Positions 5,470 through 38,924 of a stretch of DNA of 64,000 nt are shown here, in pieces. Origin of the DNA: a virus; the IMG/VR virus record IMGVR_UViG_3300050821_017626, positions 1 through 64,000 of that record; one strand, written 5' to 3'. Both the position numbers and the translations under genes were made by a program. Position 1 is the first letter of the stretch; each line of letters opens with the position of its first letter. A model generated the notes under the pieces. It saw nothing but the letters and a program-made list of their open reading frames with translations. It did not search any database and was not told the DNA's origin.

Positions 5470-6584
5470 GGCACCAGCGGTGCGAGCAGGCCATAATACC
5501 CCTCCGTTTCCGTCGGGGCAATCTCAACCGGAGAGCGATCCGGGCCAATCCAAATCGATACCTGATCGCCACCGAGGGCATTCAGCAAATTGATTAGTTG
5601 CTTCGCATTGAGAAACACTTCCAGCGTTTCGCCGCCGTCATTTTCAATACTCAAGAATTCCTCACCGTTGCCTTTATCCGTAGGAATCGAATGAAGGGCC
5701 AGTTCGCCTTTGACGGCCTTGAGGTGCAACCGGTAAGAATCGTCCTCGCAGATGGCCGCGAGGCGCTTCACTGCACCGATCAGTTCCGCTCGGTTAACGT
5801 GTAGGCAGCCACATCCGTCGCCGCCTTTGACTATCTTGTCGATCACCCGCTGCACGTTCGGATAAGGGCCGGCAATGACGCGAGATGTAAGACGGAAGCG
5901 GGGGGTCGTAATAGAGATCAGATTTTCATCGAACTGCACCCATATCTCTTTTTGTTCGTCCTGCAGATTACGAGTTAGCGCCCCCATTGTCGCCTTGGGA
6001 ATAACCGTTTCCGCCTCATCGCCGTTCCAGTCCACCGCCGCTCTATAAAATATGAATTGGTAAAGGTCTGATGAAATTAGTTTCACGAAGCGCGGGGTCA
6101 ACTGCAGGAGGGCGCCGTTGAGTGCTGGTTTGTTATCATTGCTCCCGATAGCGGGGAGCGTCTTCTCCACCATGTCTTTCAGGATATCTTCAGGAAGCGT
6201 AATTGTCCAGGGGTCCTGCAGCGCTGGCATTGAAGGGAAGGAGCCCGGTTCCAACCCATTCAGGGTGTAGCGGCTCTTTCCTGATTTTACGGTGCTGGTC
6301 GACCAATTCTTGCTCTCCACGCTCAGTTCGTCGCCCTTCATGTGGCTGACGATCTCGCAAAACTGCTTCGCCGGCAACGTTACTGCGCCGGGATGGCTTA
6401 CCGCGCCGGAAGCGATACATTCTAGTTCTACCTCGTAATCACTGGCTGATAAGATGATCTGCCCACTCTCCAACGCCTCTAGTTTGATGTGCGAGAGCAG
6501 CACAACCGGACTGTTTGGATTGACGACGTGATAAACGCGTTGCAGGGTTTCGCGGAATTCTTTGGTGTTGGCAACGATTTTCAT
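5463..6584 (-). CDS. dnaN: DNA polymerase III beta sliding clamp
   Basis: 373 aa with SASDYE, SFP, GPYPNV and a C-terminal LLAPL; three-domain clamp pattern. Confidence 0.9.
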   Translation of the reverse strand: MKIVANTKEFRETLQRVYHVVNPNSPVVLLSHIKLEALESGQIILSASDYEVELECIASGAVSHPGAVTLPAKQFCEIVSHMKGDELSVESKNWSTSTVKSGKSRYTLNGLEPGSFPSMPALQDPWTITLPEDILKDMVEKTLPAIGSNDNKPALNGALLQLTPRFVKLISSDLYQFIFYRAAVDWNGDEAETVIPKATMGALTRNLQDEQKEIWVQFDENLISITTPRFRLTSRVIAGPYPNVQRVIDKIVKGGDGCGCLHVNRAELIGAVKRLAAICEDDSYRLHLKAVKGELALHSIPTDKGNGEEFLSIENDGGETLEVFLNAKQLINLLNALGGDQVSIWIGPDRSPVEIAPTETEGYYGLLAPLVPW

Positions 6585-7992: not shown

Positions 7993-8024
7993 TTGTTTCT
8001 CCTATTTGAAGCGTGTCTATTTAT

Positions 8025-23599: not shown

Positions 23600-24442
23600 A
23601 TGAGTGATGTAGTGTTGCATTTCAAAGATGAAACTTCGCAAGAATGTAAGAGCGTGTGCCATGCAATTGCCTTTTCAATGTTCTATGACGAGGAAAAGAT
23701 TGTCGACCGGATTGAACTGAAGGGCGAGCGGGTGTTTCCCGAGGGAGTGAAACCAGAGTACTGGCCACGTTATTGGGATCAGTGGGCAACGGCGGGGATG
23801 GGGCAGGGATTGGGTCGGAGCAAGTTTTTGCAGGAGAAGAAACGGATGATGGAACAGTATGCGCGGACGGAAGAGGAGGAATTGGCGGCGCTGGATGCCA
23901 GTATCGCGGAGCTTGAGGGACGGAAGCAGACGCCGGTCAATCGGAAAAGCTCGCTCATCATCTCGGCGCTTATGACTTCTTCCTCGATTGAGGAGGCGGC
24001 GGCGAAGGCGAAGGTGTCGGGAAAAACCGTGAGCACGCTGTTGCGGGACCCGGATTTCCAGCGGGAATATTATGCGGCACAGAAGATGACGACGGCGCAC
24101 GTCGTGATCTATCTCAAGAATATGTTTGGGGATGTGGTGCAGCGGCTTTATGAGATCCTGTGCAATGAAAGCCATGCGGTGAGTGCTCGGGTGCAGGCGG
24201 CAGGGTTGCTGATGCGGTATTCGTTTGAGATGATTCAGCGGGACGTGGACGAAAAATTCAAAGAGGAAATCCGCTACTTTATAGCTGAGATCAAGGCGCG
24301 CCAGCTAGGTCAGGGTCAGGTTCCTACAATGAAATTAATGGCGCTGGCGGAGGCGGGCGATGAAGAGGCGGAGTTCTATGGGGAAGCGATGGTAGCGGAG
24401 GTGGATAGTAGCGAAGGGATAGGTGGAGGGGTGGGCAGTTGA
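23600..24442 (+). CDS. Terminase small subunit (HTH-type)
   Basis: HTH SIEEAAAKAKVSGKTVSTLLRDPDF, ARVQAA, and overlap with the TerL start. Confidence 0.65.
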   Translation: MSDVVLHFKDETSQECKSVCHAIAFSMFYDEEKIVDRIELKGERVFPEGVKPEYWPRYWDQWATAGMGQGLGRSKFLQEKKRMMEQYARTEEEELAALDASIAELEGRKQTPVNRKSSLIISALMTSSSIEEAAAKAKVSGKTVSTLLRDPDFQREYYAAQKMTTAHVVIYLKNMFGDVVQRLYEILCNESHAVSARVQAAGLLMRYSFEMIQRDVDEKFKEEIRYFIAEIKARQLGQGQVPTMKLMALAEAGDEEAEFYGEAMVAEVDSSEGIGGGVGS

Positions 24443-25431
24443 AGCTCACGCTGAATGATCTGGATGTGAGTAAGCCGTCCGATGTTTTGGGGGTGCTGCA
24501 GGCGGAAAAGAAGCGTAAAGATTTATTGCGGGAGTTGAAGCTGGAGTTGCAGGCTGCTTCGACAACGGATTTTTCTGACTTTCAGAAGACAGGTCTCAGG
24601 ATTTTCAAGCGGCCGGATATATTTGCCAGGGAATATGTCAGGTGGCCAGAGGGAGAGAAGCTTACTGCCTATCAGGAGGAGCTTCTACTCGCTATTCCCA
24701 CCAAAGAGCGTATCGCGGTGCGGGGGCCGCGCGGGCTCGGAAAGTCCTGTCTCGCCGCCCTGGCAGTGCTCTGGTTCTGCCTGAGTCGTGAGAGTCTGGG
24801 GGTCGATTACAAGTGTATTATTACAGCCGGTTCAGCAAATCAGCTTCGTAGGTACCTTTTCCCGGAGATACGCAAGTGGGCACTTCGCCTCGATTTCGAT
24901 AAGATCGGCAGGCCAAAGTTCTGCGAACGGAGCGAGCTGCTCAAAGATGCACTACAGATGTCACACGGCGAGGCGTTTTGCGTGAGTCCCGATCAGCCGT
25001 CCTTGCTGGAAGGGCTTCATGCCTCCGAAGTGCTGGTCGTGATCGATGAGGCAAAGACGGTGTGTGACGAGATATTTCACAGCGTTGAGGGCTTCTTCTC
25101 ATCGGCGGGAAAAGACAGCGGCAAACATGCCTTCGCCATTGCGATTTCAACACCATCAATCCCAGTGGGAATGTTCTATCGGCTGCACAGGCGAGAGCCT
25201 GGATTGACCCACTGGCACGCGAGGCATGTCAAATTGGATGAGGCCCTGGCCGCAGGGACGATTACCCAGGAGTATGTTGATCGGCTGGCGGCGCAGTTTG
25301 GCAAGGATTCGTCCTTCTTCCAGCAGCAGGTGCTGGGCGAATTTGCGGCAGATGATGACAGCGGAATTATCTCCTTAGATTGGATACTAAGGGCGTGTGA
25401 TCGATACGAAGAGGAATTAGAGAATGCTTGA
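24439..25431 (+). CDS. Terminase large subunit, N-terminal ATPase domain only
   Basis: Walker A RGPRGLGKS, Walker B VVIDEA, coupling motif ISTP and VLGEF. It stops at IISLDWILRACDRYEEELENA, before the nuclease domain. Confidence 0.88.
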   Translation: MKLTLNDLDVSKPSDVLGVLQAEKKRKDLLRELKLELQAASTTDFSDFQKTGLRIFKRPDIFAREYVRWPEGEKLTAYQEELLLAIPTKERIAVRGPRGLGKSCLAALAVLWFCLSRESLGVDYKCIITAGSANQLRRYLFPEIRKWALRLDFDKIGRPKFCERSELLKDALQMSHGEAFCVSPDQPSLLEGLHASEVLVVIDEAKTVCDEIFHSVEGFFSSAGKDSGKHAFAIAISTPSIPVGMFYRLHRREPGLTHWHARHVKLDEALAAGTITQEYVDRLAAQFGKDSSFFQQQVLGEFAADDDSGIISLDWILRACDRYEEELENA

Positions 25432-25621
25432 TAACCAAAGTGGGCAGTCATCTCTTACCGTTTCCGAAGCCTCTGACCTGAAGATGATCGAGCCCTCCCT
25501 GATCCTGCGGGCCATCAAGACGGGGCGGCTTCCTGCAGTCGAGGAGGCATACGGTAAACGGAAACGCTATCGGATCGATTCGGATGACCTGGAGCGGTGG
25601 GTTGAGTGGCGGAAAGGCTGA
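25424..25621 (+). CDS. Excisionase-like HTH protein
   Basis: LTVSEAS...IKTGRLPA...YRIDSDDLERW. Confidence 0.7.
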   Translation: MLDNQSGQSSLTVSEASDLKMIEPSLILRAIKTGRLPAVEEAYGKRKRYRIDSDDLERWVEWRKG

Positions 25622-26500
25622 TGGCTTCCTGGACTGCAGTGAGCGATAAAGCTATCTGGCGCATTCATTTACACCTAGGATTTTATCGCGTGTTCGTGGG
25701 CGCAAACCTATTTGTCAGTGGGCGACAATGGACCTTCAACCTTGGCGTCCCCGGAGTTCATCTACAGTTTCTCTGGTGTAGGAAATAATGCTTGCCTTTT
25801 GGCATTGGTGGATTGGTCCTTGGGCGTATGAACCTGTGTGGTTGCATATGTTTGGTCTTTGGGGCATGTTCAAATTGGGGCAGATTACGGGTAGGTGCGG
25901 GAGGTGACGCGATGTTGGTTTACGGCATTCAAATCGAGCCCGTTAAGGGCTGGGTCGAGCAGTTCGAGCATCCCGAGGGCGGAGCGGTCGTATTCATGAG
26001 CGCTCGGGATGCTCTGATGGTGGCGCAAACGCTTTACGATCTGCTGAAGGTCCCGGTGACGGTTTACTGGGCAGAAGCGGATCGGAATGATTTCGCCTGG
26101 AAAGGGAATGTTCTGGATTTGCGTGAGTATGTGTCGCTGGAGCAGGAGAGGCCGAAGGGTTAGTCATCTCCAACCGTAGTGGGCAATATCCCAAAAACCA
26201 AGGCCAACAAGTGATAGATTGGCAAGGATCAGAGACCATACCACGATACAGAAGCAGACCCAGTGGTGGCGGGCGGCAGCGTGAATGCCGAGCTTCATGG
26301 TTTCCCATAGCCATTGGAGTGATTTCATGCCACAACCTCTTCCGTTCGGGTCACTTTCAACAGGCGATATTTGTCGTGGCCTTTTTCCGAACGCAGTTCT
26401 TCGAGTTTTGCAAGAGCCGGTTTCAAGTCGAAATATAGGAATACAGTACCATCCCAAATTTCGTGTTCCTTATCATCCCACCTCGTCTCGATGATGTATT

Positions 26501-27109
26501 TTACCATGTGATTTCCTCCAGTCGGGCGATGAGCCGATCTCCGGCCTCGCGGTCTTCCACTGTCAATGCGGCTTCTTCTTCTTCTTCGAATGTCAGACAC
26601 GCCTTCAGATAAGCGCGGATGACGCGAAGTTCCTGAGGCGTTAGGGAGAGGGTGATGCTTTGGTCTTTTTGCGCCCCCCTCGCCTCCGGTTCAAGCGGTC
26701 GATCTCTTGTTGAAATAATTGGCGATGGCAGGTCTCGCACAGCCATTGGGATGGTTTGTTCGGATGTCTGACCTGCCATGTCGCTGGTTGGCCGCACGGG
26801 CAGTCTCGTTGGTTGGACATTTTTCTCCTTGTTCTTCGATCCTTTGGGACGGCCCCGCCGTTTGGGAGTGGGCTCGGGTGTTTCTTCGACCGACGTGGGC
26901 ACTACGCTGATAGCCTGGCCGATGGCGCGCTGCGTGGCCATATCCTGCAGTTGGCGCAGCTCCTCCTCCAAGTAGGCGGGAAACCGAGCGTTCTTGCGCA
27001 GGCTGGATTTCTGCTGCAGTAAGTCGATGCGGCGGGTGTTCAGGATTTCCCAGTTCACTTGCTCTCGTTCCCGGTCGTGATTGGGATATTCCGCTGCCAC
27101 TCCTTCCAT
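26501..27109 (-). CDS. AT-hook-containing protein
   Basis: PKRRGRPKGSKNK. Confidence 0.55.
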   Translation of the reverse strand: MEGVAAEYPNHDREREQVNWEILNTRRIDLLQQKSSLRKNARFPAYLEEELRQLQDMATQRAIGQAISVVPTSVEETPEPTPKRRGRPKGSKNKEKNVQPTRLPVRPTSDMAGQTSEQTIPMAVRDLPSPIISTRDRPLEPEARGAQKDQSITLSLTPQELRVIRAYLKACLTFEEEEEAALTVEDREAGDRLIARLEEITW

Positions 27110-27859
27110 GCGCAGTGATGGAAGGGGAACGGATAGTTTGGCAATATTAGGACTTGCGTTGCTGGGCAGCCGCAGCGGCAGCGTTGCCTTTGGCTTGTTC
27201 TTGGAGCCCTTGGGGCGACCGCGCCGAGGTGATTGATGCAGCGGCGATTCCTCGGGCTCTGAAGGGATGGGGGGCCTTCGGTCGCGGGAGTGGGTTGGAG
27301 CCCCAGGTTAAGCGGCACAGTCATATCAGACGGCTCGATAGTCTGGTGGATTCGGTCGGCGAACATGGTTGTGGCATCCAGCAGCGAGTACGGGCCGCGA
27401 ACGAGGATCTCCTCGCCCCATGAGATGATGGTCTGGCCTAAATAGGGTCGGTGTAATAGGTAGGCTCGTCTGCGGTGGGCAGGGATGGCGATTTCCCACA
27501 GTTCGTATTCTTCGTTGAGGTTGAGAAGGTCCTGGATTTCCTCCAGCAATGGGTTCGCGCCCATGTCGACTGGATTGGTGGGACGCAGAGTGAGGCCGGC
27601 GACTTCCATTGGTTCACTTGGGTATTGTTCTTCCATTAGTATCACCACCTATCAGGCTTGGTCCGAAAGTATTCCGCTCGTAAATCTTCAGCGCTCTCCA
27701 GCATCGCTAGGCGCGTTTCGAGTTCGTCAAGTTTAGAACTCAAGTGGGCAATCGTTTCGTCGGCCGCTTGGGCGCGATCCTCGCTTTTCTGCAGTCGGTC
27801 GTTCAGCCGGGCGATGGCGGAGCGTGTTGCTATCGCTTCAAGAAGACGTTCGTCGGACA

Positions 27860-28063
27860 TTAGAGTTCTTCCTCCTCCTCAAACCCATCAAAGATACCCT
27901 GCTTATATTTTTCGGGATATTGCCGTATCCAGTCTGCCGTTGCGTCAAAGCCTAGTTCTCCGGCAATATCGGCGACGCGAGTTCGAACGAACATGTTGGT
28001 GAGGCCGGATTCTCGGACGGCGTTTAAACCTTCCAGGACTTCGGCTGTTACTTGGATGGGCAT
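27860..28063 (-). CDS. DUF5049-like protein
   Basis: LNAVRESGLTNMF motif. Confidence 0.6.
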   Translation of the reverse strand: MPIQVTAEVLEGLNAVRESGLTNMFVRTRVADIAGELGFDATADWIRQYPEKYKQGIFDGFEEEEEL

Positions 28064-28312
28064 TATTCTACCTCCTCAATTTGACATTCGTGGGTGTATA
28101 TTGCCATTAGTCGTTTTCTCCCGTAAACTGGCCGCAGAGTGGGCAGTGTTTTTCGCGTCGTATTAGTTCTTCGACAATGTTGCTGGCGAGATAGCAGCTT
28201 TCCTTTTGCCAAGTGTCGCCTGTTTGGGGACACCAATCACCAAGCAACGTATCAATGGCGTCAAGCAGATCGAGCTTTGATGCTTTCTCAATGTCGTGTC
28301 GACTGGTTATTT

Positions 28313-28603
28313 TCATTGTTCTTCTCCTTCTTGACTTCCTGCAATCTTCGTGCCATGCCTTTCAAACCAATCGAGCAACATGAGCCTTACCTGGCCATTG
28401 ATGCTCCGGTCACCTTTTTGGGCTTGCAGACGTATCTGATTGGCCAGCCAGCCGGGGAACTGGATGCTGATTGTCACTCTCTCGGCATCATCATAAGGCA
28501 TGGCAGGGTCGCGCGTTCTCCTGCCTCTAGGATTGATGGAAGGGCGCGGCTCCGGCGGGTCAAGAAGATTCCTAAGTTCTTTTGGAAGGGTTGGGTATTT
28601 CAT
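28313..28603 (-). CDS. Arc-like ribbon-helix-helix regulator
   Basis: ISIQFPGWLANQIRLQAQKGDRSINGQV. Confidence 0.6.
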   Translation of the reverse strand: MKYPTLPKELRNLLDPPEPRPSINPRGRRTRDPAMPYDDAERVTISIQFPGWLANQIRLQAQKGDRSINGQVRLMLLDWFERHGTKIAGSQEGEEQ

Positions 28604-28835
28604 TTGGTTGCCTCTTTGTCTGTAGTGGGCAGTTCGCTGGCGTTGTGTGGGTTGCACTGGGGACAGATCCAGCCTTTTCGAGTATGCTGCCAGCCTATCT
28701 CGCGCGCTTCCTCTGCGGCCATCTTGTCCGTAGGGGAAAGGAGTTCGTAATGTTCTAAACAATCATCACAAGAGATGCTTCTGGTAATTTGAATGTGATA
28801 GGCCATTGGGGTACCCCTTATAGAGTGGGCAGTGT

Positions 28836-29849
28836 TTAACTGCGTAGTTCCTTTTTCTGTGTAGTGGGCGGATACTTCGCCGCGTATTGCTCGGCCGTGA
28901 TGTGCTGCTCGATCTCGGCATAGGGAATGCGCGGCTTGTAGTCAGACAGGTTGGGCGTCAGACACTGGCCGGTTACGGATTGGGCGTTGACACGAAGAAC
29001 TTGGTAAAAATGACGGTCGCTCATGATGTAGTCGCCCTTCTTGATGGCGGCTTTCTTCCAGGCGTCCGCTTCCGAGATACCTTTGGTGATGGTGCCGGCA
29101 CCGGCCGCTTCGATCTGCTGGCGCCAGTAGTCGGCCTTTTCCTGGTATTCGGCGACGAGATTGGTATAACGAAGAATGGCTGCCTGGCGTTTCTCGTCGC
29201 CCCATTGAGGGTGAATGGAAGGGGCGATGGATGGATTGTATTCTGGATTGCTCACGCGGTCAAGGTGACGCTGGCAGACGCGCCGTTCCGCTTCCGCTTC
29301 CTTCAGTCGGCGGTGCATGAAGGCAACGTCTTTATCTTCAGCTTTGAAGGAGGAGGAGAGGGCTCGGCCTCGGTAATATTTTGCTTTGTCTGCTTCTTCG
29401 ACGGCTGATCGTAAGGCATTGTCCGCCTTTTCGAGCGTCCTTCTGTGCTTTCTTTCAGAATAATGTCCGACGAGAATTGGTTGACCAAATGGGATTGGGT
29501 CAAGAATGGCGCGAAATCTGTCGTGGGCAGCTTCCGAGCGGGCGCTAGCGTTCTCGGAATAGGTGCGGTATCTATCAGTCCGCTTGGCTGATCGAGCTTT
29601 CGCGCTGTCGACTCGATCTGCAAAGGTTGTCTTACCGTAGTGGGCAATGGCTTCGAGGAGTTCCTCGGTCGGGTCGTGCCAGAAGGAGAAAGCGCCGCGC
29701 CATTTCTTGGCACCGAGCGCATAGAGCGCATCTTCGTATCCTGCAGTCGTGCCGGTGACGTTCCATACGGGCCGAGCCGCCTTGCCGGGTTTGCTTGGCG
29801 TGGTCATTGCTTCGGTAACAGTAAGGCCGTAGTCGGATAGGGTAGCCAT
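28836..29849 (-). CDS. DUF3560-domain protein
   Basis: IPFGQPILVGHYSERKHRR signature; strong RBS. Confidence 0.75.
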   Translation of the reverse strand: MATLSDYGLTVTEAMTTPSKPGKAARPVWNVTGTTAGYEDALYALGAKKWRGAFSFWHDPTEELLEAIAHYGKTTFADRVDSAKARSAKRTDRYRTYSENASARSEAAHDRFRAILDPIPFGQPILVGHYSERKHRRTLEKADNALRSAVEEADKAKYYRGRALSSSFKAEDKDVAFMHRRLKEAEAERRVCQRHLDRVSNPEYNPSIAPSIHPQWGDEKRQAAILRYTNLVAEYQEKADYWRQQIEAAGAGTITKGISEADAWKKAAIKKGDYIMSDRHFYQVLRVNAQSVTGQCLTPNLSDYKPRIPYAEIEQHITAEQYAAKYPPTTQKKELRS

Positions 29850-32800
29850 TGGATTGCCTCCTAACGGTTATAGTTGTGTTTGATTGGTGTGTTTGATGGA
29901 CTTGATTTTACTTTGTTGGCTGCGGCAGGAGAATCCTCTCCGTTTCGGGATCACGTGTTTCGGCAATCATCTTCAATCCCTTTCCTTCACCTAGAGGAAG
30001 GTATTCCTGCTTCCATATTTCCCCCTCCGGTGTCACGCGCCAACAGCTTGTCGTGGGTGATTTCTCGCAGTAGGTGTGGAAGTCAGTGCCAATGGTAACG
30101 AAGCGGTCCTTGTTGTCTCGCAGAGCGTTTGCATGGGCACGCTTGATCGTTTCCTTGAAGTCTTTGATATACATCGGTCCTTTTCTCCTGTGGGCGTTGT
30201 TCTATTCGTTCCACTGGTTAATTTGATCGTAGAACAATGTCCGACTCCTAATAGAGCTTAATACTGATGGTGCAAAGGGCGAGCAGGATGATGAACATCA
30301 GGGTGTTGAGGAACATGGGTATTCTCCTGTGAGTTATTTCGATTTCGGATAGGTGCCGAAGACTAATTGAGCATCGCGCTTCTTGTAAATGCGCTTCGAT
30401 AATTCTCGTTCGGCCGTCTCTTTGGTACGAAAGGAACGGGTGACTTCTTGAGTTCCGGTCAGGTAATTCGCATACCGGATATACCAGATGCCATGGGTAT
30501 TCATCCTGTATTCCTTTCTAATCGAAGTGGGCAGTCAATCGGCGATAACTTCGGCAATGCCTTTGTCTAGTGCTTCCTGTGCAGTAAGCCCCCATACAGG
30601 TTCGAATGTGTATCCATCCTCAAGGAGAATGCTTGTTCCGAAAGGTAGGAATAGCAGTGTATCGCCATTTCTGGCTTCGGTGAGAAAGGCACCTTTTATC
30701 TTCACGCGAATGCGACAAGGGGAGGTGTAACCCTGAATGTGGCCGCGTGTGGCGTTGCTGTAGTCTCCGTGTTGATCAAGGGACCCCCAGGAGTAGCCGG
30801 TGCCTTCTTCCCCCATGTATTGGCCTTTCGTGGTTACATCTTCCTCACCGATGTATTCCCCGTCTGAATTGAAAGTGTCGCCTTCGGCATAGCTTTCTAC
30901 GAGTTCGAAGTCGCTATACTCAAATATACGAGCGATCAGTCGGCAGCCATTTCCCATGGCGAACTGGCGAGCTTCTGCTATGTCCTGGGTTGTGTAATCG
31001 GATACGGAATTGCCTTCTTTATCCTCAAAGGCGTAGACTTCGATGCTCATTCGGTTTCCTCCTCGGCATAGGTCTCATCTGTCAGGAAGGAGTCGAAACT
31101 GTCTTCTTCGACGATGGCTTTTGCGTCGCCTTCATGCACCATAGCGATGGCATCTTCTGCGAATTCTGCTTCGACGCGATACATAACCTCATGGAGTTCC
31201 TTGGCGTGGACGTAAAAGACTGGCATTGTTGTTTCCTCGTTGTATAGGGTTGTTAGGGCTTGTTAGGGGTCAGGTATACCAAGAGTGGGCAAGATTGTTA
31301 GGGGTTTGATCCCCAGTTCGGCGCGTAGTCGGTCCTTCTCCCGTGCGTAGGCATCCTCGGTGCCTGCTTGCGAGATAGAGTAGTATTCGGCGATCTTGTT
31401 CTTAAGGAAGTGATAGCCTGTTGCTGTCGGTCCTTCAAGGTAGATGTTTAGGTAAACACGCAGGTTTTCGGCCATTTCTTCGAGTTCGTTGGTTTCATCT
31501 GACGTGGGCAGCATTTATCCCTCCTTTGCAGTAGCGATCCACTCTTCAGCTATCTGCAACCAGTCTACACGCCCTAACGCGGCTGTTAGGAGTTCGTGGG
31601 CCAGGTAATCGTCGTCGGTTTTGCAGGCGGCTTCTCTGCAGTCAAGGGTAAGCCAGCGACCTTCTACGTATGCTTCCAGTTCGTCGGCAAGCTGGCGAGA
31701 GGCAGCGTCGTCTGTGGGGTTCTCCTCAAGGACTGTTAGGGCCAGGTCTCTGGCATCGTCATATTGTGGGCGATTGTTGGAGAGGAAGAGGGCACAGTGG
31801 AATGTGAAATAATTGGAATATCCTGAGACTTCGGTTTCTGGGGTCATTGGTTGGTTCTCCGCCTAGCGCTCGGCCAAACGCCCGGAGGGTGATTGGCGAG
31901 AGTGATAGGCAACAGTGGGCAGAGTTATTGTGCTGCATTCAACAGCGCGCAGAAGGAGAAGGGCGGATTAGGCAGTTCGATGGCATCGAGCGTTTGGATA
32001 TCGAAGGGTTCGCCGGCATTGCCGAGCCGGGCGATACCTTCTTCTTCGTCCCCATAGTCGGGTAGATCTTGGTCGGCAACAAGGAATTGATCTAGTTTGT
32101 CATTGTCTACGGCTTCGTCAAAGGCATCCTGGAGGCAGGAGGCGAACACAATGGCGACAGGGAATCCATGGGCGTGGATAAGGAAAGGTCGCACATTGTG
32201 CGGATTGTATTCGCCTGCAGGGATGTAATCCGAAGGGTTGGCAACGTCGGCGTCGGAGAGGGTGAAGTCGAGATTGTTAATGGTAATAGTCGTGGTCATG
32301 ATTGGCCCCCTTTGGTTGATTGGTGGCAGCAGTGGGCAGGATCTAGCGGCCATTAGCATTGAGAAGTTCGGCAATGACATGGGTTATCATGTCTGCTTCT
32401 GTGGGACTGGTTTCTCCTGCTTTTTGGATATAGATGAAGGGGATACCATTCCGGTAGATGTTCCTCCCTGGCTCGACAGTGTAGCGGAAATTTAACTTCT
32501 CGGTTGCTTCCTTGGCTGTTCGGGAGGTGAAGGGTAGAGTGACACCATTGGCAATGGAATGCCATGCCCATCGGTCGCCGAGCCAAACCTTCTTAATTTG
32601 TCCCCCTTTGACTTTTCGTGGCTCTAAGTTGTGATTGATGTTCATATTTATTCCTCGTAATTACCACAGTGGGCAGTGTTTCCCGCAGTGGGCAGTTCGC
32701 TTGTCAGTAGGTCGCGACATGCTTGGTCGGCTTCTCCGTAGTGGAGGAAGGCAGAGTCGCCTTGCATTCCACAGATGGAGGCGAGTTTGTCAACGAAGAG

Positions 32801-33696
32801 ACGGATGATGGGGTGATTGTTGCGCCATTCGGTTCCTTCATTCAGTCGGTTGGCTTCATCGTTGACAGCCTTCACCGCTTCGAGGAAGGAGCGTGCTACT
32901 CCCGATAGGTTGCAGGCGTTCTGAACTTGGAGAGCGTCGCTGGCGGCTTGCTGTAGGTTAGTCATGGTTTAGTTCCTCCCGAAGGTTGCGACATTGGATT
33001 TCAAGTCGCATGACTTGAAATAGGAGTTCAGCCGTGTTTGTGGGCTGATTGGCGCGGATGGCTGCTTCAATTGAGTCGAGTTCGTGGCGGATGGCTGCTA
33101 TATTGTCGAGTGACCATTTCTTGTAAAAGATTGCGTTAGGCATGGTTGGCTTCCTGTTGATCGGGAAGGGCGTAGAAAGATGCCCACACTGTGAGAGCAA
33201 TAGAACCAAGCGAGGAGTTCGCTATCTGTTCCCTCACGTATTCGTTCCCGTCAGACGTGAGAGGGTTCTCAAGAAAAAGGTTGCAAGAGTCGCAATGTTG
33301 GGGACAGTCCGCTTCTCCCCCGCCGTTAGAGAATGGCCCTTGAGGGAAATCTTCGCTGTCGTCCATGTTCAGTGGACGAGGGTCTGAACAACGCTCTTCG
33401 GTCGCTGCGAGTCCGCAGTCCTCACAAAGTAAGGCAGATTTGTATATGTATGCATTCATGGAATTTCCTCCAGCCATTCTTCGGAGCGGATGATACGAAC
33501 TTCACTGTAACGGTTTTCGGAGCGGTATCGTTCAGCTTGTGAGATAACGACCGAGCGGATATGGTCGGAATAGATGTTGTTTGTCCAACAGAGAGAGCCA
33601 TGCTCCCGTACGTCTATCCTCCACCATGTTTGTTTGTCTGGTTTCCAGTTTGGGTTAGGTTTGGTCATGGTTTGTTAGGTTCCTAATGAATAATGG

Positions 33697-34269
33697 CTAG
33701 AGTGGGCAGATCGCTTTTGTTTGCTCTTTGACGCAGTATTCTGCTGCTTCCCTCGCTTGCTCTTCGCAGTAGGTAAGCCCATAGAAACCCCAACAGGAGT
33801 CAAGATGGTTTCCGTTGCTGTCCTCTACGGTGTAGCCGTATACCTCTCCTTGGAGAAACTGATTGTAGGTTTCGACTTCGCAACGCAGGACACCTTCGGC
33901 GGCTTGCTCCTTCTCCTCTGGCGTCATGGCAGCGTTGACGTATTCCTGTTTGACGACATGGATGGGAGCGAAGATGAAACCTACTTGTCCACTGTCCCAT
34001 GGACAAGAGAAAGGTTTGGTGGAGATGGTCAAGCCACTATGGTCGTACAGGTAAAGGGGGAGAATGATGGTATCCTGTCCATGGTCGGAGCGAATGGATT
34101 CCTCTAGATCCTGCCACGAGGAGAAGTCTCCAGAGGAGTAGCCGTGTTTCTTGTCGCCAAGTTCGTACCGTTTGTGGAAGCATACCATGGTCCCTAGGTT
34201 GTCCCATTCACGAGGGGAGTCGGCGTCAGTGTCCTGTTCAATCTTGATGGTCAAGCCTTTGTATAGCAT
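33697..34269 (-). CDS. Conserved acidic phage early protein of unknown function
   Basis: PREWDNLG, LPLYLYDHSG, CPWDSGQVG and DSCWGFYG motifs. Confidence 0.6.
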   Translation of the reverse strand: MLYKGLTIKIEQDTDADSPREWDNLGTMVCFHKRYELGDKKHGYSSGDFSSWQDLEESIRSDHGQDTIILPLYLYDHSGLTISTKPFSCPWDSGQVGFIFAPIHVVKQEYVNAAMTPEEKEQAAEGVLRCEVETYNQFLQGEVYGYTVEDSNGNHLDSCWGFYGLTYCEEQAREAAEYCVKEQTKAICPL

Positions 34270-37043
34270 GGGTTAGTCCTCCTCGGGAGAGAGCAGCGTA
34301 TCAACAATATCACAGGCAAGGGAGAAGCCGGCATCGGCCGTTACCTCGTCAACATAGAGTCGATGAGTAGGGGGCAGATCGGTTAGAGTGGGCAGATCGT
34401 AAAGACGCCGAAGGAGAGTGGGCAGGGATTCGGGAGAGACGGAACAGCGGATGCCTGTTGCTAGGACAGCTCCTTCAGGGAATCTACTGCAAGGATCTAG
34501 ACGGCGCTCTATGGGTTCGTAGGTATCGGTTTCCTGGCGATAGCACGCCTCAAGATGGGAGTCGATGCCTTGATTGACAGCGGCAATGACGGCCGCAGCG
34601 TCGGAACTGACGAGTTCCATGCGGTAGGGCTTGCCTTGCATGGCCGATCTGATCTGTTCGTAAGTGACGGTGCCATGGTCGTCAATGTAGCCGATTATGT
34701 TGGTGTCGGTCATGGTCATGGTCGGTTCCTCTTTCTAGCCGTTGTCAGACGACCGATAGTAGTTTGGGCATGGCCACACCTCTGTGTTCTTTGGCAAGCG
34801 GGATATCCCTGCCCATTCTTTGGCGCGTTCCCTTGCTTGTGCCTCCCCTACTGGGGAAGAGAAGCGGAACGTCATGGCATTCTCTGATTCGGGGAAGCGA
34901 ACCCACCATAAGACGCAAGTGCCGAACATAGTTGTGTCCTCCTTTCCGAGTCGTGCGGTGATCAGCCGACCTTTCGCCATGTGAGTGTTGACGCGGCCCG
35001 TGCCTCCTCCACTTCTTGACAGCGTAGAAGCTCTTCCTCGGTCGCAAGGCGGGCGACATAGGCGGTGCGGGGACCATGAGCGCCCGTGAGCATGTGGGCG
35101 CGCTTCTCGGCCGTCTCTTGGTCGTACAGATCGGGTGTGGCCATTCGGCGAATGAGCTTGCCCCCGGAGTAGAACTGCGCTTCAACGACGAAGGTCGGTT
35201 TCATCGAGTCCACCCTTCCCCGGTAGGAGCCCAATCGAGTCCGCCGGTATGGCGGCTGTTGAGAAGATGGGCCGCTAGGCGAGCGAGCCACGCGAAAGGA
35301 AAGCGGTAGATGGGACGGCCGTCGGATGGGCTGAAGACTTCATAGCGCATGTCAAGATCCTCCTCTTAGGCGCGTTAAGCGAATTGTATAGGGCGGTTTG
35401 GAGTGCAAGCTGGACAGAATCCCTCGGAACTCAAGTCGCTTGTGGCAGCGTAGAAGGTGCATCCTGCAGCGTTACACTGCAGCAGCAGTTCCCCGTCAAC
35501 GGCCGCTAGTGCCTCCTCACGGGTGGAGTATACTTCGTCGGTCTCCTCTTGGTCGGAAGATTTCCAAACAATCCAACAGTCGTGGAGACCTACCGACATA
35601 TCTCCTGCTTCGAAGTAAATCTGCGGGTAGCCGTACGGGTAGCATGTGCCGAGTGGGTAGTAAACGACGTTCTTAACATGTGAAGCGCGAATGAACTTCA
35701 CCATCAGCGAATCTCCACTTGGAACTTGGTCGGGACGGCAAGGAAGCGCTTGTCCCATCGCTGCATGAAGGCGCGCATTTTGGCAGTAGGGGAGAAGGAT
35801 GGTCCGGTTCCCCAGTGATTGATTGTGACGGAGCATAGGTCCGGCATGGCGTAAACTCTGGTTGTCGAGAGGTACTCTCGGATGAGAGCGCAAGCGATGG
35901 GACAGTTTGAGGGGGATACACCTCCTTCTTGCTGACGGAGTTCAGTGGCTCGGTCGATATCCTGCTGGGTGACTGAGATGTTACGCTTCATGGTCGGTTT
36001 CTCCAGTGTGTATAAGTGTGTATAGCAGTGTGTAGGGTTACTTGCCTGTGTCGGGTGGGTTTCCTTTACATCCGCCCGCGTACCACATGGTACGGCCTTC
36101 CCAATATGAGCAACGCTCATAAGCTTTTTCTAAAGATTCTTTCAATCCTCTGTTTTCCTCCTGAAGGGCAAGTACTTGGTCAATCGCCTTGTCGGCCATG
36201 GCCTGGTAATGTCTGGCTTGATTTTTTGCATCTTGCAGTTCGAGTCGAATCGTTTCGTTGTCCTTCATGGTGTCCTCACAAAATCAACAGTATGAATGTG
36301 TAACCCGTCCTTTGAACGGATGGGAGTAACCTTCACTTGCCAACGTTGCCCACATTTACAGGTTCGCTTGACGACTAAAGTAGCTTGTGACATGAGAGGA
36401 GTTCCCGGCAGTATCCGATCACAATCGGGACACTTAAAGCATACTTTCGTAGTGGGCATCTTCAGAGTCCCCTGTATGGGTTTCGAGTGGAAACATTGAC
36501 AACCAGAGTCTCAGTCTGAGATTCAAAGGTTCTATTCGTTGTATCCTGTGTCCAATGAATTCCTACCCCCTTTCAAGCCACACAACGTGGCCCGCGAGAA
36601 GGTTCCGGCGATGGGCCATCAGCTCTTTGGGGGTGAAGAGGGAGGAAGCAGGTTCCTGGCCGACGCCAGACCAACAGAGATCCGGTTCGCAGATTTCGCA
36701 AGTGGCCTCATCCTCACAGCCGCAGCCGTAGTCACAGGAGAGGCAATGGGAGCGTTCCTCGGCCATGGCGTCAAGGATTGCGACTTCAAGCTTCGCCTTA
36801 TGGGTCCGGTTGATTAAGGTATGATCTTCCGGGTAGGCCAGGATAACAGCGACCGACGAGGGTTCGCAGTCGCGGTGCCAGTAGGAGGCACAGTAGTACG
36901 TATAGCGGCCCATGGTCAGTTACTCCAAACCGCGTTAGCGGCGAAGGTCGAAAGAAGGTAGCCGATAAGGAAGCCAGAGAGAACGACGGTGAGATAGCGG
37001 AACATGGTTGTGCCTTTCTGCAGTAGGTATCCTGCGACTCGTT

Positions 37044-37096
37044 CCCCTTTCGCCCATCGCTGGGCTCATCAGTACCCGACTAGCCGGGTAGAGGGG
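37044..37096 (-). ncRNA. Type III hammerhead ribozyme (HHR-B)
   Basis: CCCCU-C^-UACCCGG(CUAG)UCGGGUA-CUGAUGA-GCCCA(GCGA)UGGGC-GAAA-GGGG; all core nucleotides and three stems present. Confidence 0.92.
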
Positions 37097-37288
37097 TCAC
37101 CGCTCCCGTAAGAGCGGTGAGGTGATGTATACATTGACGGTGGAGCCGTATTGGTCGCGAGTGGGCTCCAATTCAACAGTGACGACTTCAACAGGGTCGA
37201 CGCGGTGAGGGAACTTGATAACTTCCGAGTCGATCATGGTCCCCAGCCGACCGTCGAAGGTGATGAGTTTCCCGAATACATACTTCAT
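37097..37288 (-). CDS. 63-aa protein enclosed by two hammerheads
   Basis: ATG at 37288, 9 nt after AAAGGGG; the stop codon abuts HHR-B. Confidence 0.65.
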   Translation of the reverse strand: MKYVFGKLITFDGRLGTMIDSEVIKFPHRVDPVEVVTVELEPTRDQYGSTVNVYITSPLLRER

Positions 37289-37297
37289 GGTGTCGTT

Positions 37298-37349
37298 CCC
37301 CTTTCGGCTGTCGCCAGCCATCATCAGCGAGCGCTATTGCTCGGAGGGG
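37298..37349 (-). ncRNA. Type III hammerhead ribozyme (HHR-A)
   Basis: CCCCU-C^-CGAGC(AAUAGC)GCUCG-CUGAUGA-U-GGCUG(GCGA)CAGCC-GAAA-GGGG; one extra U after A9. Confidence 0.88.
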
Positions 37350-38008
37350 TTCCGCTGCCTTCACCGTCTCATCCTGTCGCATTCAGGCGGGATTGTGGCA
37401 GCGGGGCCGCTTCTGGCGTGTTGACCGCGTACCACGGCAACCGCCAGGGAAAGCGCGCTATGAAGTTCCTCGCTCTGCGTTGTGCAAACTCGGCAGCGAG
37501 CGAACGTTGTCAAGGTTCCGACGGCAGGCTCTCATCCTGCGCGCTATGCGGTGCCTTCCTTATATAAGGAAGGGCCGCGTTGTTTGGGTTAGCGGCGGTT
37601 GCGCCTTCTAGGCAAGCGAACAACTATCTCGCCAGGGAATGCTTCGCCATTGGCTATACGATCAGCCAGCAGCATACGCATTCGGCCGATTTCTCCCGCT
37701 GTTCCTGATACTTGCCCAACCTTGGGCGCCCAAAGAATAGCTTTCCGCATATCATCCTCTCTAGCGGCGGCTGATTGTGTAAAACGGGCAGCCAGCGTTA
37801 ACCCAAACGATGATACCGACGATGCTGGCCAGCAGAAGGCCGGCTTTCGTGACTACTGCGAACAGCGTTGCTTCCATTCCTCGTTCCTCCTTGCGTCATA
37901 ACCGTTATGGTTATCGGTTGGTCGGTCAGGTTTCTTTAGGTCGGTTGGGTGAAGTAATCCTCTCCGATTGTCCCCGAGGGGAGGGAGAGGAGGAGGTCAC
38001 TCCATCCT

Positions 38009-38065
38009 GTGCCTTGCTCTTCGTTATACGCGGGCTTGCAACCGCCGTCGGCCGAGTTAAGGCGC
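38009..38065 (-). ncRNA. Type P1 twister ribozyme
   Basis: GCCU-U^AA-CUCG-GC-CGACG-GCGG-UUGCAAGC-CCGC-GUAUAA-CGAA-GAGCA-AGGC. P1, P2, P4 and both pseudoknots (UGC/GCA, GC/GC) can be formed. Confidence 0.82.
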
Positions 38066-38358
38066 CTTTAGGCGCTTACATCTTGCTTTCTGCTTTCCGC
38101 AGATCGTCCCCCAACGACATGAGTTCGTTGTGTAAGGCAAGATACTCTCCACTCAGGTAAGGAGTTGCTCGAAGCAACTGGTATACCCGATCAATCTCCG
38201 CACATATTCTCTTGAGATCCATCAGTTTCTCCTCGGTCGGTTGGGTGAACTCTGCTGCTCACATAGGGATTATTCCGCACATCCCGTGCCATGTGAGATA
38301 CTATTTTTTGGGTTTCTGCGACCGTGCCTGTACCGTGCCTGTGGCCCAACCCATCTAT

Positions 38359-38388
38359 AGTATAGCACAGGGTGACGCTATGGGTCAA
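38359..38388 (-). promoter_or_regulatory. sigma70-type promoter of the leftward block with a tandem operator-like repeat
   Basis: TTGACC-N18-TATACT with extended TG; GGGTGACGC repeated at 38370 and 38392. Confidence 0.65.
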
Positions 38389-38498
38389 TATGGGTGACGC
38401 GTTGGGTCAGGGTGAGGTGAGGGAGGGGGAGAGCTGGTGGGGGCCAGGATGGGGAGGAGAGGGGGAGCGGAAGGGATGGAGGCACGATACTGTTCGCA

Positions 38499-38526
38499 AC
38501 TTCCGATAATATTTATTACGTTGCGA
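38499..38526 (+). other. dif-like (XerC/D-type) 28-bp site
   Basis: ACTTCCGATAA-TATTTA-TTACGTTGCGA (11-6-11), intergenic at the strand divergence. Confidence 0.45.
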
Positions 38527-38924
38527 AGGTTTGATAGTCGCTAGGCACGGACTATCGAACTATATGGGTATGACGTCGGAGCGTGACGGTATGATGGCTG
38601 TCAAAGAGGGGGCCGATTCACTCTTTTTACGACTGTCACAGGAGGCGCGCGGGTATGTCTAAGGGGCCATGAAATTTTTTCGAAAAAAGTAAAACCTTAC
38701 TGGTGTAATTCATAGCTTCTAGGCACGACTGTTGGTATAATTGAGGTAACCCGAGATGGGAGATCCAACTAGATGCTTTCAGAAACCATTGCCCCTCGCA
38801 AGATCGTCAGCGAACGACGGAAACAGAGCAAACGTGATTGGTCAAGAGAGAACCTCCGCAGCCCGAACTGCAACCATTCTATCAAGTGTTATGGCCTTTG
38901 TCCACACACCATTACCACCAACCC

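What the first reader, a model, noticed from the sequence alone, without database searches (positions are those of the whole stretch)
28138..34425. Same-strand 9-mer AGTGGGCAG concentrated in the early gene block regardless of reading frame
Seen: 11 exact copies in 6.3 kb (far below one expected by chance), one more at 25439, and near-copies at 26178, 27474, 27743, 28863, 29522, 29639, 31284, 31503 and 36451, all on one strand. In ORFs it is read in all three frames (LPT, TAH, CPL) and it also occurs between genes, so the signal is in the nucleic acid. Inference: (a) a Chi-like site oriented to stop a RecBCD/AddAB enzyme entering from a DNA end to the right; (b) a KOPS-like translocase guide (it contains GGGCAG) pointing to the dif-like site; or (c) an RNA signal, CUGCCCACU, for antitermination or processing.
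Basis: partly seen in the sequence, partly recalled or inferred. Interest (0 to 1): 0.78.

Follow-up and report, generated by a model that had tools for sequence, protein, structure and literature searches.

The report
Oriented gene-boundary word in phage
An uncultured ~100-kb phage writes one exact 9-11-letter word, always in the same direction, just in front of the ribosome sites of a dozen small genes and, in weaker copies, through the neighbouring DNA; it is most likely the docking word of an unidentified phage-specific factor, and is not a host Chi or KOPS signal.

Summary
AGTGGGCAG occurs 12 times on the + strand (25439-34425) and once on the - strand, in a 96-kb viral contig where about 0.1-0.5 copies are expected. 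It is the most over-represented 9-mer in the genome.

The genes here lie on the minus strand, so their mRNA reads CTGCCCACT, usually CTGCCCACTnT. Seven of the 11 copies in the block end 17-41 nt upstream of an SD+ATG (P~2e-6). None lies in the first two thirds of a gene.

About 18 one-mismatch copies lie on the same strand. Some sit in the convergent terS/terL operon, antisense to those genes (7 against 1.2 after codon shuffling). The word therefore follows the DNA strand or leftward transcription, not local gene direction.

It has no second promoter element, no conserved RNA fold and no match to known Chi or KOPS words. The only syntenic relative lacks it.

My best reading (~0.35) is a phage-specific polar DNA site acting on leftward transcription, stoperator-like. 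Rivals are an RNA processing or translation signal, tf/T5-type nick sites, a one-element promoter, and Chi.

The parts
34417..34425 (-). Exact copy CTGCCCACTcT, the first (most upstream) copy in the leftward operon. It heads a tandem triplet with 34387-34395 and the near-copy at 34369-34377. It lies inside gene 34719..34273, 47 codons before the stop.
34387..34395 (-). Exact copy (GATCTGCCCACTCT), 117 nt upstream of ATG 34269.
34369..34377 (-). Near-copy CTGCCCCCT, the third member of the tandem triplet.
33701..33709 (-). Exact copy (GATCTGCCCACTCT). It sits 1 nt before the stop of gene 34269..33697 and 32 nt upstream of ATG 33668.
32668..32695 (-). Tandem pair of exact copies (32687-32695 and 32668-32676) in the last 12 and 6 codons of gene 32965..32648. 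They lie 41 and 22 nt upstream of ATG 32645.
32331..32339 (-). Exact copy, intergenic: 3 nt after stop TAG and 31 nt upstream of ATG 32299. The downstream gene is 69% identical to its counterpart in relative G002.
31914..31922 (-). Exact copy, intergenic: 2 nt after stop TAA and 66 nt upstream of ATG 31847.
30526..30534 (-). Exact copy, intergenic: directly after stop TGA and 21 nt upstream of ATG 30504.
28824..28832 (-). Exact copy, intergenic: 3 nt after the stop of the DUF3560 gene and 17 nt upstream of ATG 28806. Only 5 nt separate it from the SD. The near-copy CCGCCCACT lies 39 nt upstream at 28863-28871.
28624..28632 (-). Exact copy in the last 7 codons of gene 28806..28600, 20 nt upstream of ATG 28603.
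28138..28146 (-). Exact copy in the last 10 codons of gene 28316..28107 (encoding the CPLC of a zinc-ribbon-like tail), 74 nt upstream of ATG 28063.
25439..25447 (-). Exact copy 8 nt beyond the stop of the convergent + strand terL-N gene, at the far end of the leftward block.
23781..24883 (-). Near-copies inside or at the junction of the + strand terS and terL-N genes (23781, 24430, 24875). They keep the same strand as the block and so are antisense to these genes.
   Evidence: 7 copies with at most one mismatch in the + operon, against 1.2 after codon shuffling
6459..6469 (+). The only copy in the opposite orientation. It reads GATCTGCCCACTCT on the + strand, the same 14-mer as at 34395 and 33709, and is antisense inside the beta-clamp gene.
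26164..38222 (-). Leftward block of about 34 small genes, almost all ORFans. It has no internal sigma-70-type promoter apart from one weak match and no convincing terminator.
38359..38388 (-). Sigma-70-type promoter TTGACC-N18-TATACT at the head of the block. No copy of the word lies in 38.2-39.0 kb, where a different repeat (CGTGCCTAG) is found.
28101..28129 (+). Promoter of the phage's own class on the opposite strand (TTGCCA-N17-TAAACT). Its predicted start at ~28136 falls on AGAGTGGGCAG.
28136..28208 (+). Candidate ~70-nt antisense RNA with the word's complement at its 5' end and a weak hairpin plus U-tract at 28179-28208. The fold is no better than shuffles.

Best explanation
CTGCCCACT(nT) is the recognition word of a phage-specific, sequence-reading factor that acts with fixed polarity on leftward transcription of the small-gene block. 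I think the most likely form is a polar protein-DNA site, working like a stoperator. Strong (exact) sites sit in the short space between a stop codon and the next ribosome-binding site. A tandem triplet at 34.4 kb acts as a gate that separates the first ~3.8 kb of the operon from the rest. Weaker sites continue through the coding sequence and into the convergent terS/terL operon, where they would stop antisense read-through without hindering sense transcription. What is shown: the enrichment, the strand rule, the position rule, the lack of any second promoter element or RNA fold, and the absence of the word from the syntenic relative.
For: 1. Enrichment and strand bias: 12 copies against 1, with 0.1-0.5 expected.
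2. Position: 7 of 11 block copies end 17-41 nt upstream of a start, a zone that covers 6.8% of the block (P=2e-6). Nine of 11 are intergenic or in the last 16 codons.
3. Copies with at most one mismatch inside genes: 19 observed against 1.8 after codon shuffling. In the oppositely oriented + operon, 7 against 1.2 on the same DNA strand. This fits a DNA-level or leftward-transcription rule, not local gene sense.
4. No terminator-like site was predicted at the convergence near 26.2 kb, so leftward read-through is plausible.
5. Tandem copies sit at the upstream edge of the territory (34425/34395/34377) and again at 32695/32676 and 28871/32.
6. There is no conserved flank, no -35 or -10 partner and no common RNA structure or accessibility.
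7. The syntenic relative G002 shares 17 of my called genes in the same order but lacks the word. It shows only a weak word of its own (AGGATTA[C]: 8 copies, same relative strand, 3 inside terL-N). This is the pattern expected when a phage-encoded reader and its sites change together.
8. L5-type stoperators are asymmetric, lie in short intergenic spaces and act only in one orientation (PMC9283540).
Against: No copy lies at or near the sigma-70-type promoter that heads the block, where different repeats are found. Stoperator systems do have such an operator. In L5 the orientation follows the local direction of transcription, whereas here it does not flip at the convergent junction. No repressor-like or HTH protein was found among the 50 gene products scanned with Pfam, NCBIfam or PHROGs, including ten of the larger genes of the leftward block; nearly all of these are ORFans. 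Sites 0-3 nt after a stop codon would stall the polymerase before the stop is transcribed, which is awkward for a pure roadblock. The tight placement just upstream of the SD fits an RNA-level role at least as well. The one reverse copy at 6459 needs a special explanation.
Confidence: 0.35

Rival explanations
1. RNA-level signal. CUGCCCACU in the polycistronic leftward transcript is an intercistronic site for a trans-acting factor: an endoribonuclease, a translational regulator, or a small RNA with the seed AGAGUGGGCAG. It would do for the distal cistrons what self-cleaving ribozymes do at the proximal gene boundaries.
For: The position is what such a site needs. Four copies lie 0-3 nt after a stop, and seven lie 17-41 nt before an SD+ATG. 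The same operon carries a twister-P1 match at 38011-38063 (E=3e-5, below Rfam's gathering score). It also has a hammerhead-like core, CUGAUGA..GAAA, directly upstream of ATG 37288. RNA cleavage at gene boundaries is therefore already a theme in this operon. A promoter of the phage's own class on the + strand (TTGCCA-N17-TAAACT, 28101-28129) would start an RNA at AGAGTGGGCAG. A pattern I wrote after seeing that site matches 7 places in 192 kb where ~0.4 are expected; the other six matches head operons, and this is the seventh. The T at +2 in 8 of 12 copies would pair with that RNA's first base. The commonest variant, C1 to T, keeps a G-U pair.
Against: The copies antisense to terS/terL are significantly enriched, and they serve no purpose unless leftward read-through RNA matters. 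There is no conserved structure or accessibility: mean unpaired probability is 0.52 against 0.45 for controls. The candidate RNA folds no better than shuffles (z=0.25) and its terminator is weak. The promoter pattern was written after seeing the site. Copies inside the upstream gene's tail would truncate that cistron if cleaved.
Confidence: 0.25
2. Recognition site of a phage nickase. These would be localized single-strand interruptions in virion DNA, as in T5, phiKMV-like phages and Pseudomonas phage tf.
For: Phage tf carries 14 mapped nicks in the 9-mer TACT/RTGMC, all on one strand. Eleven are in the early half and two or three lie in the convergent late unit, antisense to its genes. Relatives use a slightly different word (PMC3517423). 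From the annotated record I count 7 of the 12 early-unit nick sites within a few codons of a gene boundary, the same kind of bias as here. Restriction-enzyme-like exactness fits an enzyme.
Against: Here the territory is only ~13 kb of at least 96 kb. One-mismatch copies are enriched about ten-fold, whereas tf has only three. Tandem copies 19-30 nt apart have no counterpart in tf. The preference for the zone just upstream of the SD is stronger than tolerance alone predicts: 7 of the 9 junction sites lie in 22% of the junction zone. No nuclease candidate was identified. The biological role of such nicks is unknown.
Confidence: 0.15
3. One-element promoter for delayed-early or middle transcription, read by host RNA polymerase carrying one of the phage's own sigma factors.
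For: The phage encodes three sigma-family proteins: 4588-5469 (RpoD/RpoS-like), 9732-10397 (ECF-like) and 45105-45623 (regions 2 and 4). A near-copy, CTGCCCAT, lies 20 nt upstream of the ECF-like sigma gene's ATG. CACTnT places an A and a T at the spacing of -11 and -7. A tandem triplet followed by one copy per junction resembles promoter arrays. Two unrelated phages that share one gene of the block carry repeated early promoters at gene junctions: L274 has TTGACA-N17-TAAGAT, and L275 has terminator + TTGGCAATAAG 17 times.
Against: There is no -35 or other second element. The word is G+C-rich. Only 5-7 nt separate the word from the SD at 28832 and 28632, so a sigma-type start 6-7 nt downstream would remove the SD. 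No upstream terminators are present. No phage RNA polymerase was found: there is no DxDGD motif in six frames and no family hit in the large ORFs. The copies inside genes and antisense in terS/terL remain unexplained. The phage's recognisable promoters are ordinary bipartite ones.
Confidence: 0.1
4. Host-read polar DNA signal: a Chi-like site that attenuates RecBCD/AddAB entering from the right, or a KOPS-like translocase guide.
For: The word is G-rich on the strand that is G-rich across 16-40 kb whatever the gene direction. The single reverse copy at 6459 lies where the skew is reversed. Copies ignore the convergent operon boundary.
Against: The word is confined to ~13 kb, with no mirror cluster to the right of the 38.5-kb hub. 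It is tied to gene starts. Its 9-11 nt specificity is longer than known Chi words. It matches none of the six known Chi, KOPS or SRS words counted in the contig, and GGGNAGGG is unskewed. The syntenic relative of equal G+C has none. Tandem occurrences in IMG/VR are no more frequent than for a reversed control word.
Confidence: 0.07

Closest known systems
Stoperators of Cluster A mycobacteriophages (L5 gp71-type repressor sites, 13-mer GGTGGMTGTCAAG)
   Same: Both are asymmetric words present in many copies and placed in short intergenic spaces. Action depends on orientation, and the specificity is lineage-specific (PMC9283540).
   Different: This word is 9-11 bp, not 13. It is confined to one ~13-kb territory. 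There is no copy at the early promoter. Orientation does not flip with the convergent operon. No gp71-like repressor was found.
Localized nick (sci) sites of phage tf, phiKMV-like phages and T5
   Same: Both are exact ~9-nt words on one strand only. They are concentrated in the early region, with a few copies antisense in the convergent unit. Many lie at gene boundaries, and relatives use a different word (PMC3517423).
   Different: Nicking is untested here. Here the territory is much narrower, near-copies are enriched and tandem copies occur.
Start-associated sequences of Cluster K mycobacteriophages and the intergenic direct repeats of T1/TLS-like phages
   Same: All are oriented words upstream of a subset of gene starts with no assigned reader. 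For TLS, see PMC11447400. The Cluster K description is from my own knowledge.
   Different: The SAS includes the SD and lies 3-8 bp from the start codon. Here the word is separate from the SD and lies 17-41 nt away. The TLS repeats are longer and A+T-rich.
PeSL-type early promoter cassettes of T4-type phages
   Same: Both mark boundaries of small, fast-changing early genes. The block differs from its relative G002 by gene gain, loss and replacement between conserved anchor genes, next to word copies.
   Different: There is no stem-loop and no -35/-10 promoter around the word.

Membership tests
Chi sites | Matches a known Chi word, or is over-represented and skewed throughout the host chromosome | tested here: inconclusive
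   The word matches none of the known Chi words counted in the contig (GCTGGTGG, GCTGGCGC, AGCGG, GCGCGTG, GAAGCGG). The host could not be identified, so the host-genome test could not be run.
Chi sites | Placement independent of gene boundaries and spread along the replicon | tested here: not met
   The word is confined to 23.8-36.5 kb. Seven of 11 copies lie in a 6.8% zone upstream of starts.
Chi sites | Oriented towards a double-strand end or rolling-circle tail | not testable with these tools
   The contig is linear, about 79% complete, and its termini are unknown.
KOPS / SRS translocase guides | Consensus GGGNAGGG (or GAGAAGGG), skewed genome-wide towards dif | tested here: not met
   GGGNAGGG occurs 11 times on + and 7 on -. 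GGGCAGGG occurs 4 times on +, and 3 of those (23801, 27477, 34420) extend copies of the word. GAGAAGGG occurs once on + and twice on -.
Stoperators (Cluster A mycobacteriophages) | Asymmetric sites in short intergenic spaces, many per genome | tested here: met
Stoperators (Cluster A mycobacteriophages) | Orientation follows the local direction of transcription | tested here: not met
   Copies in the + strand terS/terL operon keep the strand of the minus-strand block (7 against 1.2).
Stoperators (Cluster A mycobacteriophages) | The same word serves as operator at the early lytic promoter | tested here: not met
   There is no copy in 38.2-39.0 kb. A different repeat, CGTGCCTAG, is found there.
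Stoperators (Cluster A mycobacteriophages) | gp71-type repressor (HTH plus stoperator domain) | tested here: inconclusive
   No hit was found among the 50 gene products scanned with Pfam, NCBIfam or PHROGs. Most small ORFs have no family and 21% of the genome is missing.
Localized nick sites (T5, phiKMV, tf) | Exact short word on one strand only, unevenly distributed | tested here: met
   12 copies against 1, all within 9 kb. For comparison with tf.
Localized nick sites (T5, phiKMV, tf) | A physical, ligatable nick in virion DNA at the word | not testable with these tools
   No reads were available.
Sigma-70 or ECF-type promoters | Two elements at fixed spacing and a start site upstream of the SD | tested here: not met
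   There is no conserved second element. The word lies only 5-7 nt from the SD at two sites.
Start-associated sequences (Cluster K) | Word includes the SD and lies 3-8 bp from the start codon | tested here: not met
   Distances to the start codon are 17-74 nt (two more at 117 and 147), and the SD is a separate element.
Self-cleaving ribozymes or structured RNA | Conserved secondary structure around the word, or an Rfam match | tested here: not met
   No Rfam match overlaps any copy at E up to 5. There is no common fold.

The most novel reading that the evidence does not exclude
The leftward operon may mark all its cistron boundaries for RNA-level action. Self-cleaving ribozymes would serve the first boundaries. 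Further down, an 11-nt word would be read in trans by a phage antisense RNA whose 5' end is AGAGUGGGCAG (promoter at 28101-28129), or by a sequence-specific RNA-binding nuclease. One trans-acting reader would then switch a dozen early cistrons on or off together.
Probability: 0.12. Interest if true: 0.8.

Novelty: new variant of a known kind. Interest (0 to 1): 0.5.

Why it matters
Oriented, lineage-specific words at the boundaries of early genes keep turning up in uncultured large phages. Only two kinds have been tested experimentally: L5 stoperators and T5/tf nick sites. This case is unusually clean. It has twelve identical copies, a sharp position rule and a strand rule that crosses a convergent operon boundary. 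It also sits in an operon with ribozymes at other gene boundaries and in a phage with three sigma factors. Finding its reader would show how a large phage partitions a 12-kb early operon in time. It could also yield a new sequence-specific polar terminator, nickase or RNA-targeting tool. It also shows that a same-strand G-rich word need not be Chi or KOPS.

Tried and rejected
1. Closer relatives carrying the word. Megablast against the phage records found nothing. Single-protein scans of IMG/VR found nothing. The DUF3560 profile in IMG/VR, metagenomes and GTDB genomes returned 240 loci, and none has the word above chance.
2. Host identification through DUF3560 homologues (best hits Armatimonadota, Bdellovibrionota, cyanobacteria at no more than 40%) and the protein atlas for the beta clamp. 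Both were uninformative, so host Chi skew and 16S complementarity could not be tested.
3. IMG/VR scan for tandem copies of the word. It returned 113+ stretches, some with heptad or iteron arrays. A reversed control word returned just as many (118+), so these hits were dropped.
4. The TerL-N profile found G001, a complete 108-kb phage with an intact TerL. It shares only TerL and SNF2 with this genome and is of no use for synteny.
5. A -35/-10 partner, an enriched upstream GAAC and other dyads: none survives multiple testing.
6. A trans-hammerhead reading (an enzyme strand ending GAAAGUGGGCAG): no copy has the required context (by inspection).
7. DnaA box: the word differs from TTATCCACA at three key positions, judged from my own knowledge.
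8. The + strand ORF 28139-28750 as a real gene: its coding score is negative.
9. A phage RNA polymerase: none found.
No read-level evidence could be obtained.

Full report
**Observation.** AGTGGGCAG occurs 12 times on the + strand of the window (25439-34425) and once on the - strand (6459). Dinucleotide-preserving shuffles give a mean of 0.44. The window is the first 64 kb of a 96,261-bp linear viral contig that is about 79% complete, and the remaining 32 kb hold no copy. By excess over a second-order Markov model it is the top 9-mer of the whole contig. Models trained only on the + strand of 21-37 kb still expect just 0.12-0.35 copies. Allowing one mismatch, 30 of 38 hits lie on the + strand between 21.8 and 36.5 kb. 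The 7-mer core GTGGGCA occurs 28 times on + (24 in the cluster) and 7 times on -.

**Setting.** The contig is a large tailed phage.
- It has a T4-type portal, and a fused prohead protease and major head protein.
- It has a beta clamp, an SNF2 helicase, RNase HI, dUTPase and a large serine recombinase.
- It has three sigma-family proteins: 4588-5469 (RpoD/RpoS-like), 9732-10397 (ECF-like) and 45105-45623 (regions 2 and 4).
- The genes from 38222 down to about 26164 are on the minus strand: about 34 small genes, almost all without family. The sense form of the word is therefore CTGCCCACT.
- The block is headed by a sigma-70-type promoter, TTGACC-N18-TATACT, at 38388-38359. This belongs to a class (TTAACA/TTGACC-N17-18-TATACT) that also heads five other operons.
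- Inside the block there is essentially no further promoter of that kind and no convincing terminator.
- The block converges on a + strand operon that carries a small-terminase-like gene (23600-24442) and the ATPase half of a split large terminase (24439-25431).

**Anatomy of the word.** Aligning the 12 exact copies shows no conserved flank. The one exception is T at the second position after the word, present in 8 of 12 copies, which gives CTGCCCACTnT. There is also a mild A-rich preference just upstream. Three copies share AAACACTGCCCACT. Three share GATCTGCCCACTCT, and one of these is the single reverse copy at 6459. That copy is therefore a true family member and not a chance hit. No 4-6-mer is enriched at any distance up- or downstream beyond multiple testing. 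The predicted RNA context is heterogeneous: mean unpaired probability of the word is 0.52, against 0.45 +/- 0.18 for random block positions. No Rfam family overlaps a copy even at E=5.

**Position rule.**
- Of the 11 exact copies inside the block, four are intergenic and start 0-3 nt after a stop codon (32339, 31922, 30534, 28832).
- Five lie in the last 1-13 codons of the upstream gene.
- Two, the tandem pair 34425/34395, lie 37-47 codons before a stop.
- None is in the first two thirds of a gene.
- Seven end 17-41 nt upstream of an ATG with a good SD, a zone that makes up 6.8% of the block. The binomial P is 2e-6, or 7e-6 if tandem pairs count once.
- Within the junction zone (intergenic plus the last 16 codons, 31% of the block), seven of the nine junction copies fall in the fifth nearest the next SD. 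Relaxed coding constraint alone does not explain the placement.
- The first copies met by a leftward polymerase form a tandem triplet (34425, 34395 and the near-copy at 34377), about 3.8 kb below the promoter. After that, most gene junctions with a spacer of 20 nt or more down to 28 kb carry a copy; the gaps 30334-30174 and 29908-29849 do not.

**Strand rule.** Shuffling codons within genes gives 1.8 expected copies with at most one mismatch in the coding sequence of the block, against 19 observed. In the convergent + operon, 7 copies lie on the same DNA strand, antisense to terS and terL-N, against 1.2 expected and a maximum of 6 in 300 shuffles. So the word follows the DNA strand, or leftward transcription running through the convergence. 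It does not follow the sense of the local genes. The + strand is G-rich across 16-40 kb whatever the gene direction, so the block's coding strand is C-rich. That is unlike the other blocks of this phage and unlike the same block in its relative.

**Relatives.** Only one contig is a true syntenic relative: IMGVR_UViG_3300005534_000024 (G002, 40 kb).
- It shares three genes of the block (69%, 55% and 55% identity), the convergent terL-N/terS pair, the separate nuclease half of terL, two sigma factors, the clamp and the helicase, in the same order.
- It has no copy of the word in the block.
- Between the shared anchor genes, the small genes have been gained, lost or replaced.
- Its only candidate equivalent is a weak word, AGGATTA(C). 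It has eight copies on the same relative strand. Several lie 0-14 nt after a stop codon and three lie antisense inside terL-N. I treat this as suggestive only.
- Other phages share just one anchor gene. L275 shows a terminator plus TTGGCAATAAG 17 times, and L274 shows a full TTGACA-N17-TAAGAT promoter four times. Repeated words at early-gene junctions can therefore be promoters, but these phages are not close kin.
- A scan of IMG/VR for tandem copies of the word found as many stretches as a reversed control word did. The word has no special currency among phages.

**Reading (a), Chi, and (b), KOPS.**
- The KOPS consensus is not met, and GGGNAGGG is unskewed.
- A Chi-like role fits the G-rich strand-locked character and the reversed copy in the region of reversed skew.
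- It does not fit the 13-kb confinement, the lack of a mirror cluster beyond the 38.5-kb hub, the 9-11-nt exactness or the tie to gene starts.
- It also does not fit the absence from a relative of the same G+C.
- The host and the genome ends are unknown, so its defining tests could not be run.

**Promoter reading.**
- Three phage sigma factors make unusual promoters likely somewhere in this genome, and a near-copy sits 20 nt upstream of the ECF-like sigma gene.
- There is no second element.
- The word is G+C-rich.
- At two sites the SD begins 5-7 nt after the word, so a sigma-type start would cut it off.
- No phage RNA polymerase is present in the 96 kb.
- Copies inside genes and antisense in the terminase genes would remain unexplained.

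**RNA reading (c).**
- The position between stop codon and SD is what an intercistronic processing or translational site needs.
- The same operon has a twister-P1 match (38011-38063, E=3e-5, below the gathering score) and a hammerhead-like core immediately upstream of ATG 37288. RNA cleavage at gene boundaries is therefore already in use there.
- One copy (28138) lies exactly at the predicted start of a + strand promoter of the phage's own class (TTGCCA-N17-TAAACT). It is followed about 45 nt later by a weak hairpin and U-tract. That RNA would begin AGAGUGGGCAG, complementary to every copy.
- The pattern was defined after seeing the site, the fold is unremarkable, and nothing else supports it. 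It stays a minority reading.
- The antisense copies in terS/terL argue against a purely RNA-level role unless read-through RNA matters.

**DNA-protein readings.** Two experimentally known systems look most like this one.
- L5-type stoperators are asymmetric, intergenic and orientation-dependent (PMC9283540). Unlike this word, they have a copy at the early promoter, and their orientation follows local transcription. Neither holds here.
- The nick sites of phage tf are an exact 9-mer on one strand only. They are concentrated in the early unit, with a few antisense in the convergent late unit (PMC3517423). From the annotated record, 7 of 12 early-unit sites lie at gene boundaries. That is a good formal match. 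However, near-copy enrichment, tandem copies and the narrow territory have no counterpart in tf, and the function of such nicks is unknown.

**Verdict.** I commit, at about 0.35, to a phage-specific polar site on DNA that acts on leftward transcription. Exact copies between cistrons act as strong sites, the triplet at 34.4 kb acts as a gate, and weaker copies extend into the terminase operon, where they would stop antisense read-through. The RNA-level reading (0.25), nick sites (0.15), a one-element promoter (0.10) and Chi/KOPS (0.07) remain open. This scan has already reported similar oriented junction words in other phages. I used those notes as leads only. Two tools that could have settled the question were unavailable: contig look-up by protein and public sequencing runs.

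Noticed in passing
window 4588-5469 (-), 9732-10397 (-), 45105-45623 (-): The phage carries three sigma-family genes: one RpoD/RpoS-like with regions 2-4, one ECF-like, and one small protein with regions 2 and 4. The first overlaps the end of the beta-clamp gene. Orthologues of the first two are present in relative G002.
   Followed up: partly
window 2859, 8054, 13702, 38388, 41701, 46689 (- strand) and ~21417 (+): A promoter class TTAACA/TTGACC-N17-18-TATACT heads the operons. A second class, TTGACA/TTGCCA-N17-18-TATAAT, precedes genes at 50770-51168 and 79151-79600, and TATAAT-type elements precede several virion genes.
   Followed up: partly
window 38011-38063 (-) and ~37290-37349 (-): There is a twister-P1 match (37.5 bits, E=3e-5, below the gathering score of 67.2). 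A hammerhead-like core (CUGAUGA ... GAAA flanked by CCCC/GGGG) sits just upstream of ATG 37288. Rfam did not report the hammerhead even at E=5.
   Followed up: partly
window 24439-25431 (+) and 11751-12431 (-): The large terminase is split into an ATPase half and a nuclease half, 12 kb apart on opposite strands. The same split is present in relative G002 (7730-8731 and 21788-22465). The more distant G001 has both halves adjacent on one strand (32991-34394).
   Followed up: partly
window 16000-40000: The + strand is G-rich, and T-rich in 26-34 kb, whatever the gene direction. The minus-strand block 26-38 kb therefore has a C-rich coding strand, unlike all other blocks here and unlike the same block in G002 (skew +0.08 on its coding strand).
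   Followed up: partly
window 38280-38760: The region between the divergent operons holds a ~80-nt G-rich tract on the + strand (including GCTGGTGG at 38433). It also holds repeats of (GT)CGTGCCTAG / AGGCACG in both orientations, which look like operators of a different regulator.
   Followed up: no
genome-wide, e.g. window 6099, 42898, 46335, 48359; beyond the window 64114-90444: CAACTGCAG and its complement CTGCAGTTG are strongly over-represented on both strands (11 and 9 copies against ~0.5 expected), sometimes as the palindrome CAACTGCAGTTG.
   Followed up: no
window 58182-61166 (+): A 994-aa protein in the virion gene block has a weak, sub-threshold match to the catalytic domain of diphtheria toxin (ADP-ribosyltransferase fold; 23.7 bits against a cut-off of 25).
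   Followed up: no
window 54329-55231 (-): This ORF has weak LAGLIDADG-endonuclease matches at threshold, next to the portal gene.
   Followed up: no
L275:1100-13600 (IMGVR_UViG_3300025706_000001): There are seventeen same-strand cassettes. Each consists of a G+C-rich hairpin with a T-tract, then (T)TGGCAATAAG, then about 45 nt, then GAAAGGGG and ATG. This is a PeSL-like array of terminator plus unusual promoter before each small gene.
   Followed up: partly
L019 (IMGVR_UViG_3300047321_000445) and L077 (IMGVR_UViG_3300014325_000019): Other phages carrying a DUF3560 gene have their own same-strand words: ACTCGACTTG (10 copies, 2 on the other strand) and CGAAGTACTCG (5 copies).
   Followed up: no
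L376, L296, L367, L364, L356 (low-G+C IMG/VR contigs): These contigs have dense iteron-like arrays of TTCTGCCCACTTT, with inverted AAAGTGGGCAA copies, in A+T-rich regions. They are probably replication-origin iterons and were found only because they contain the same 9-mer.
   Followed up: no
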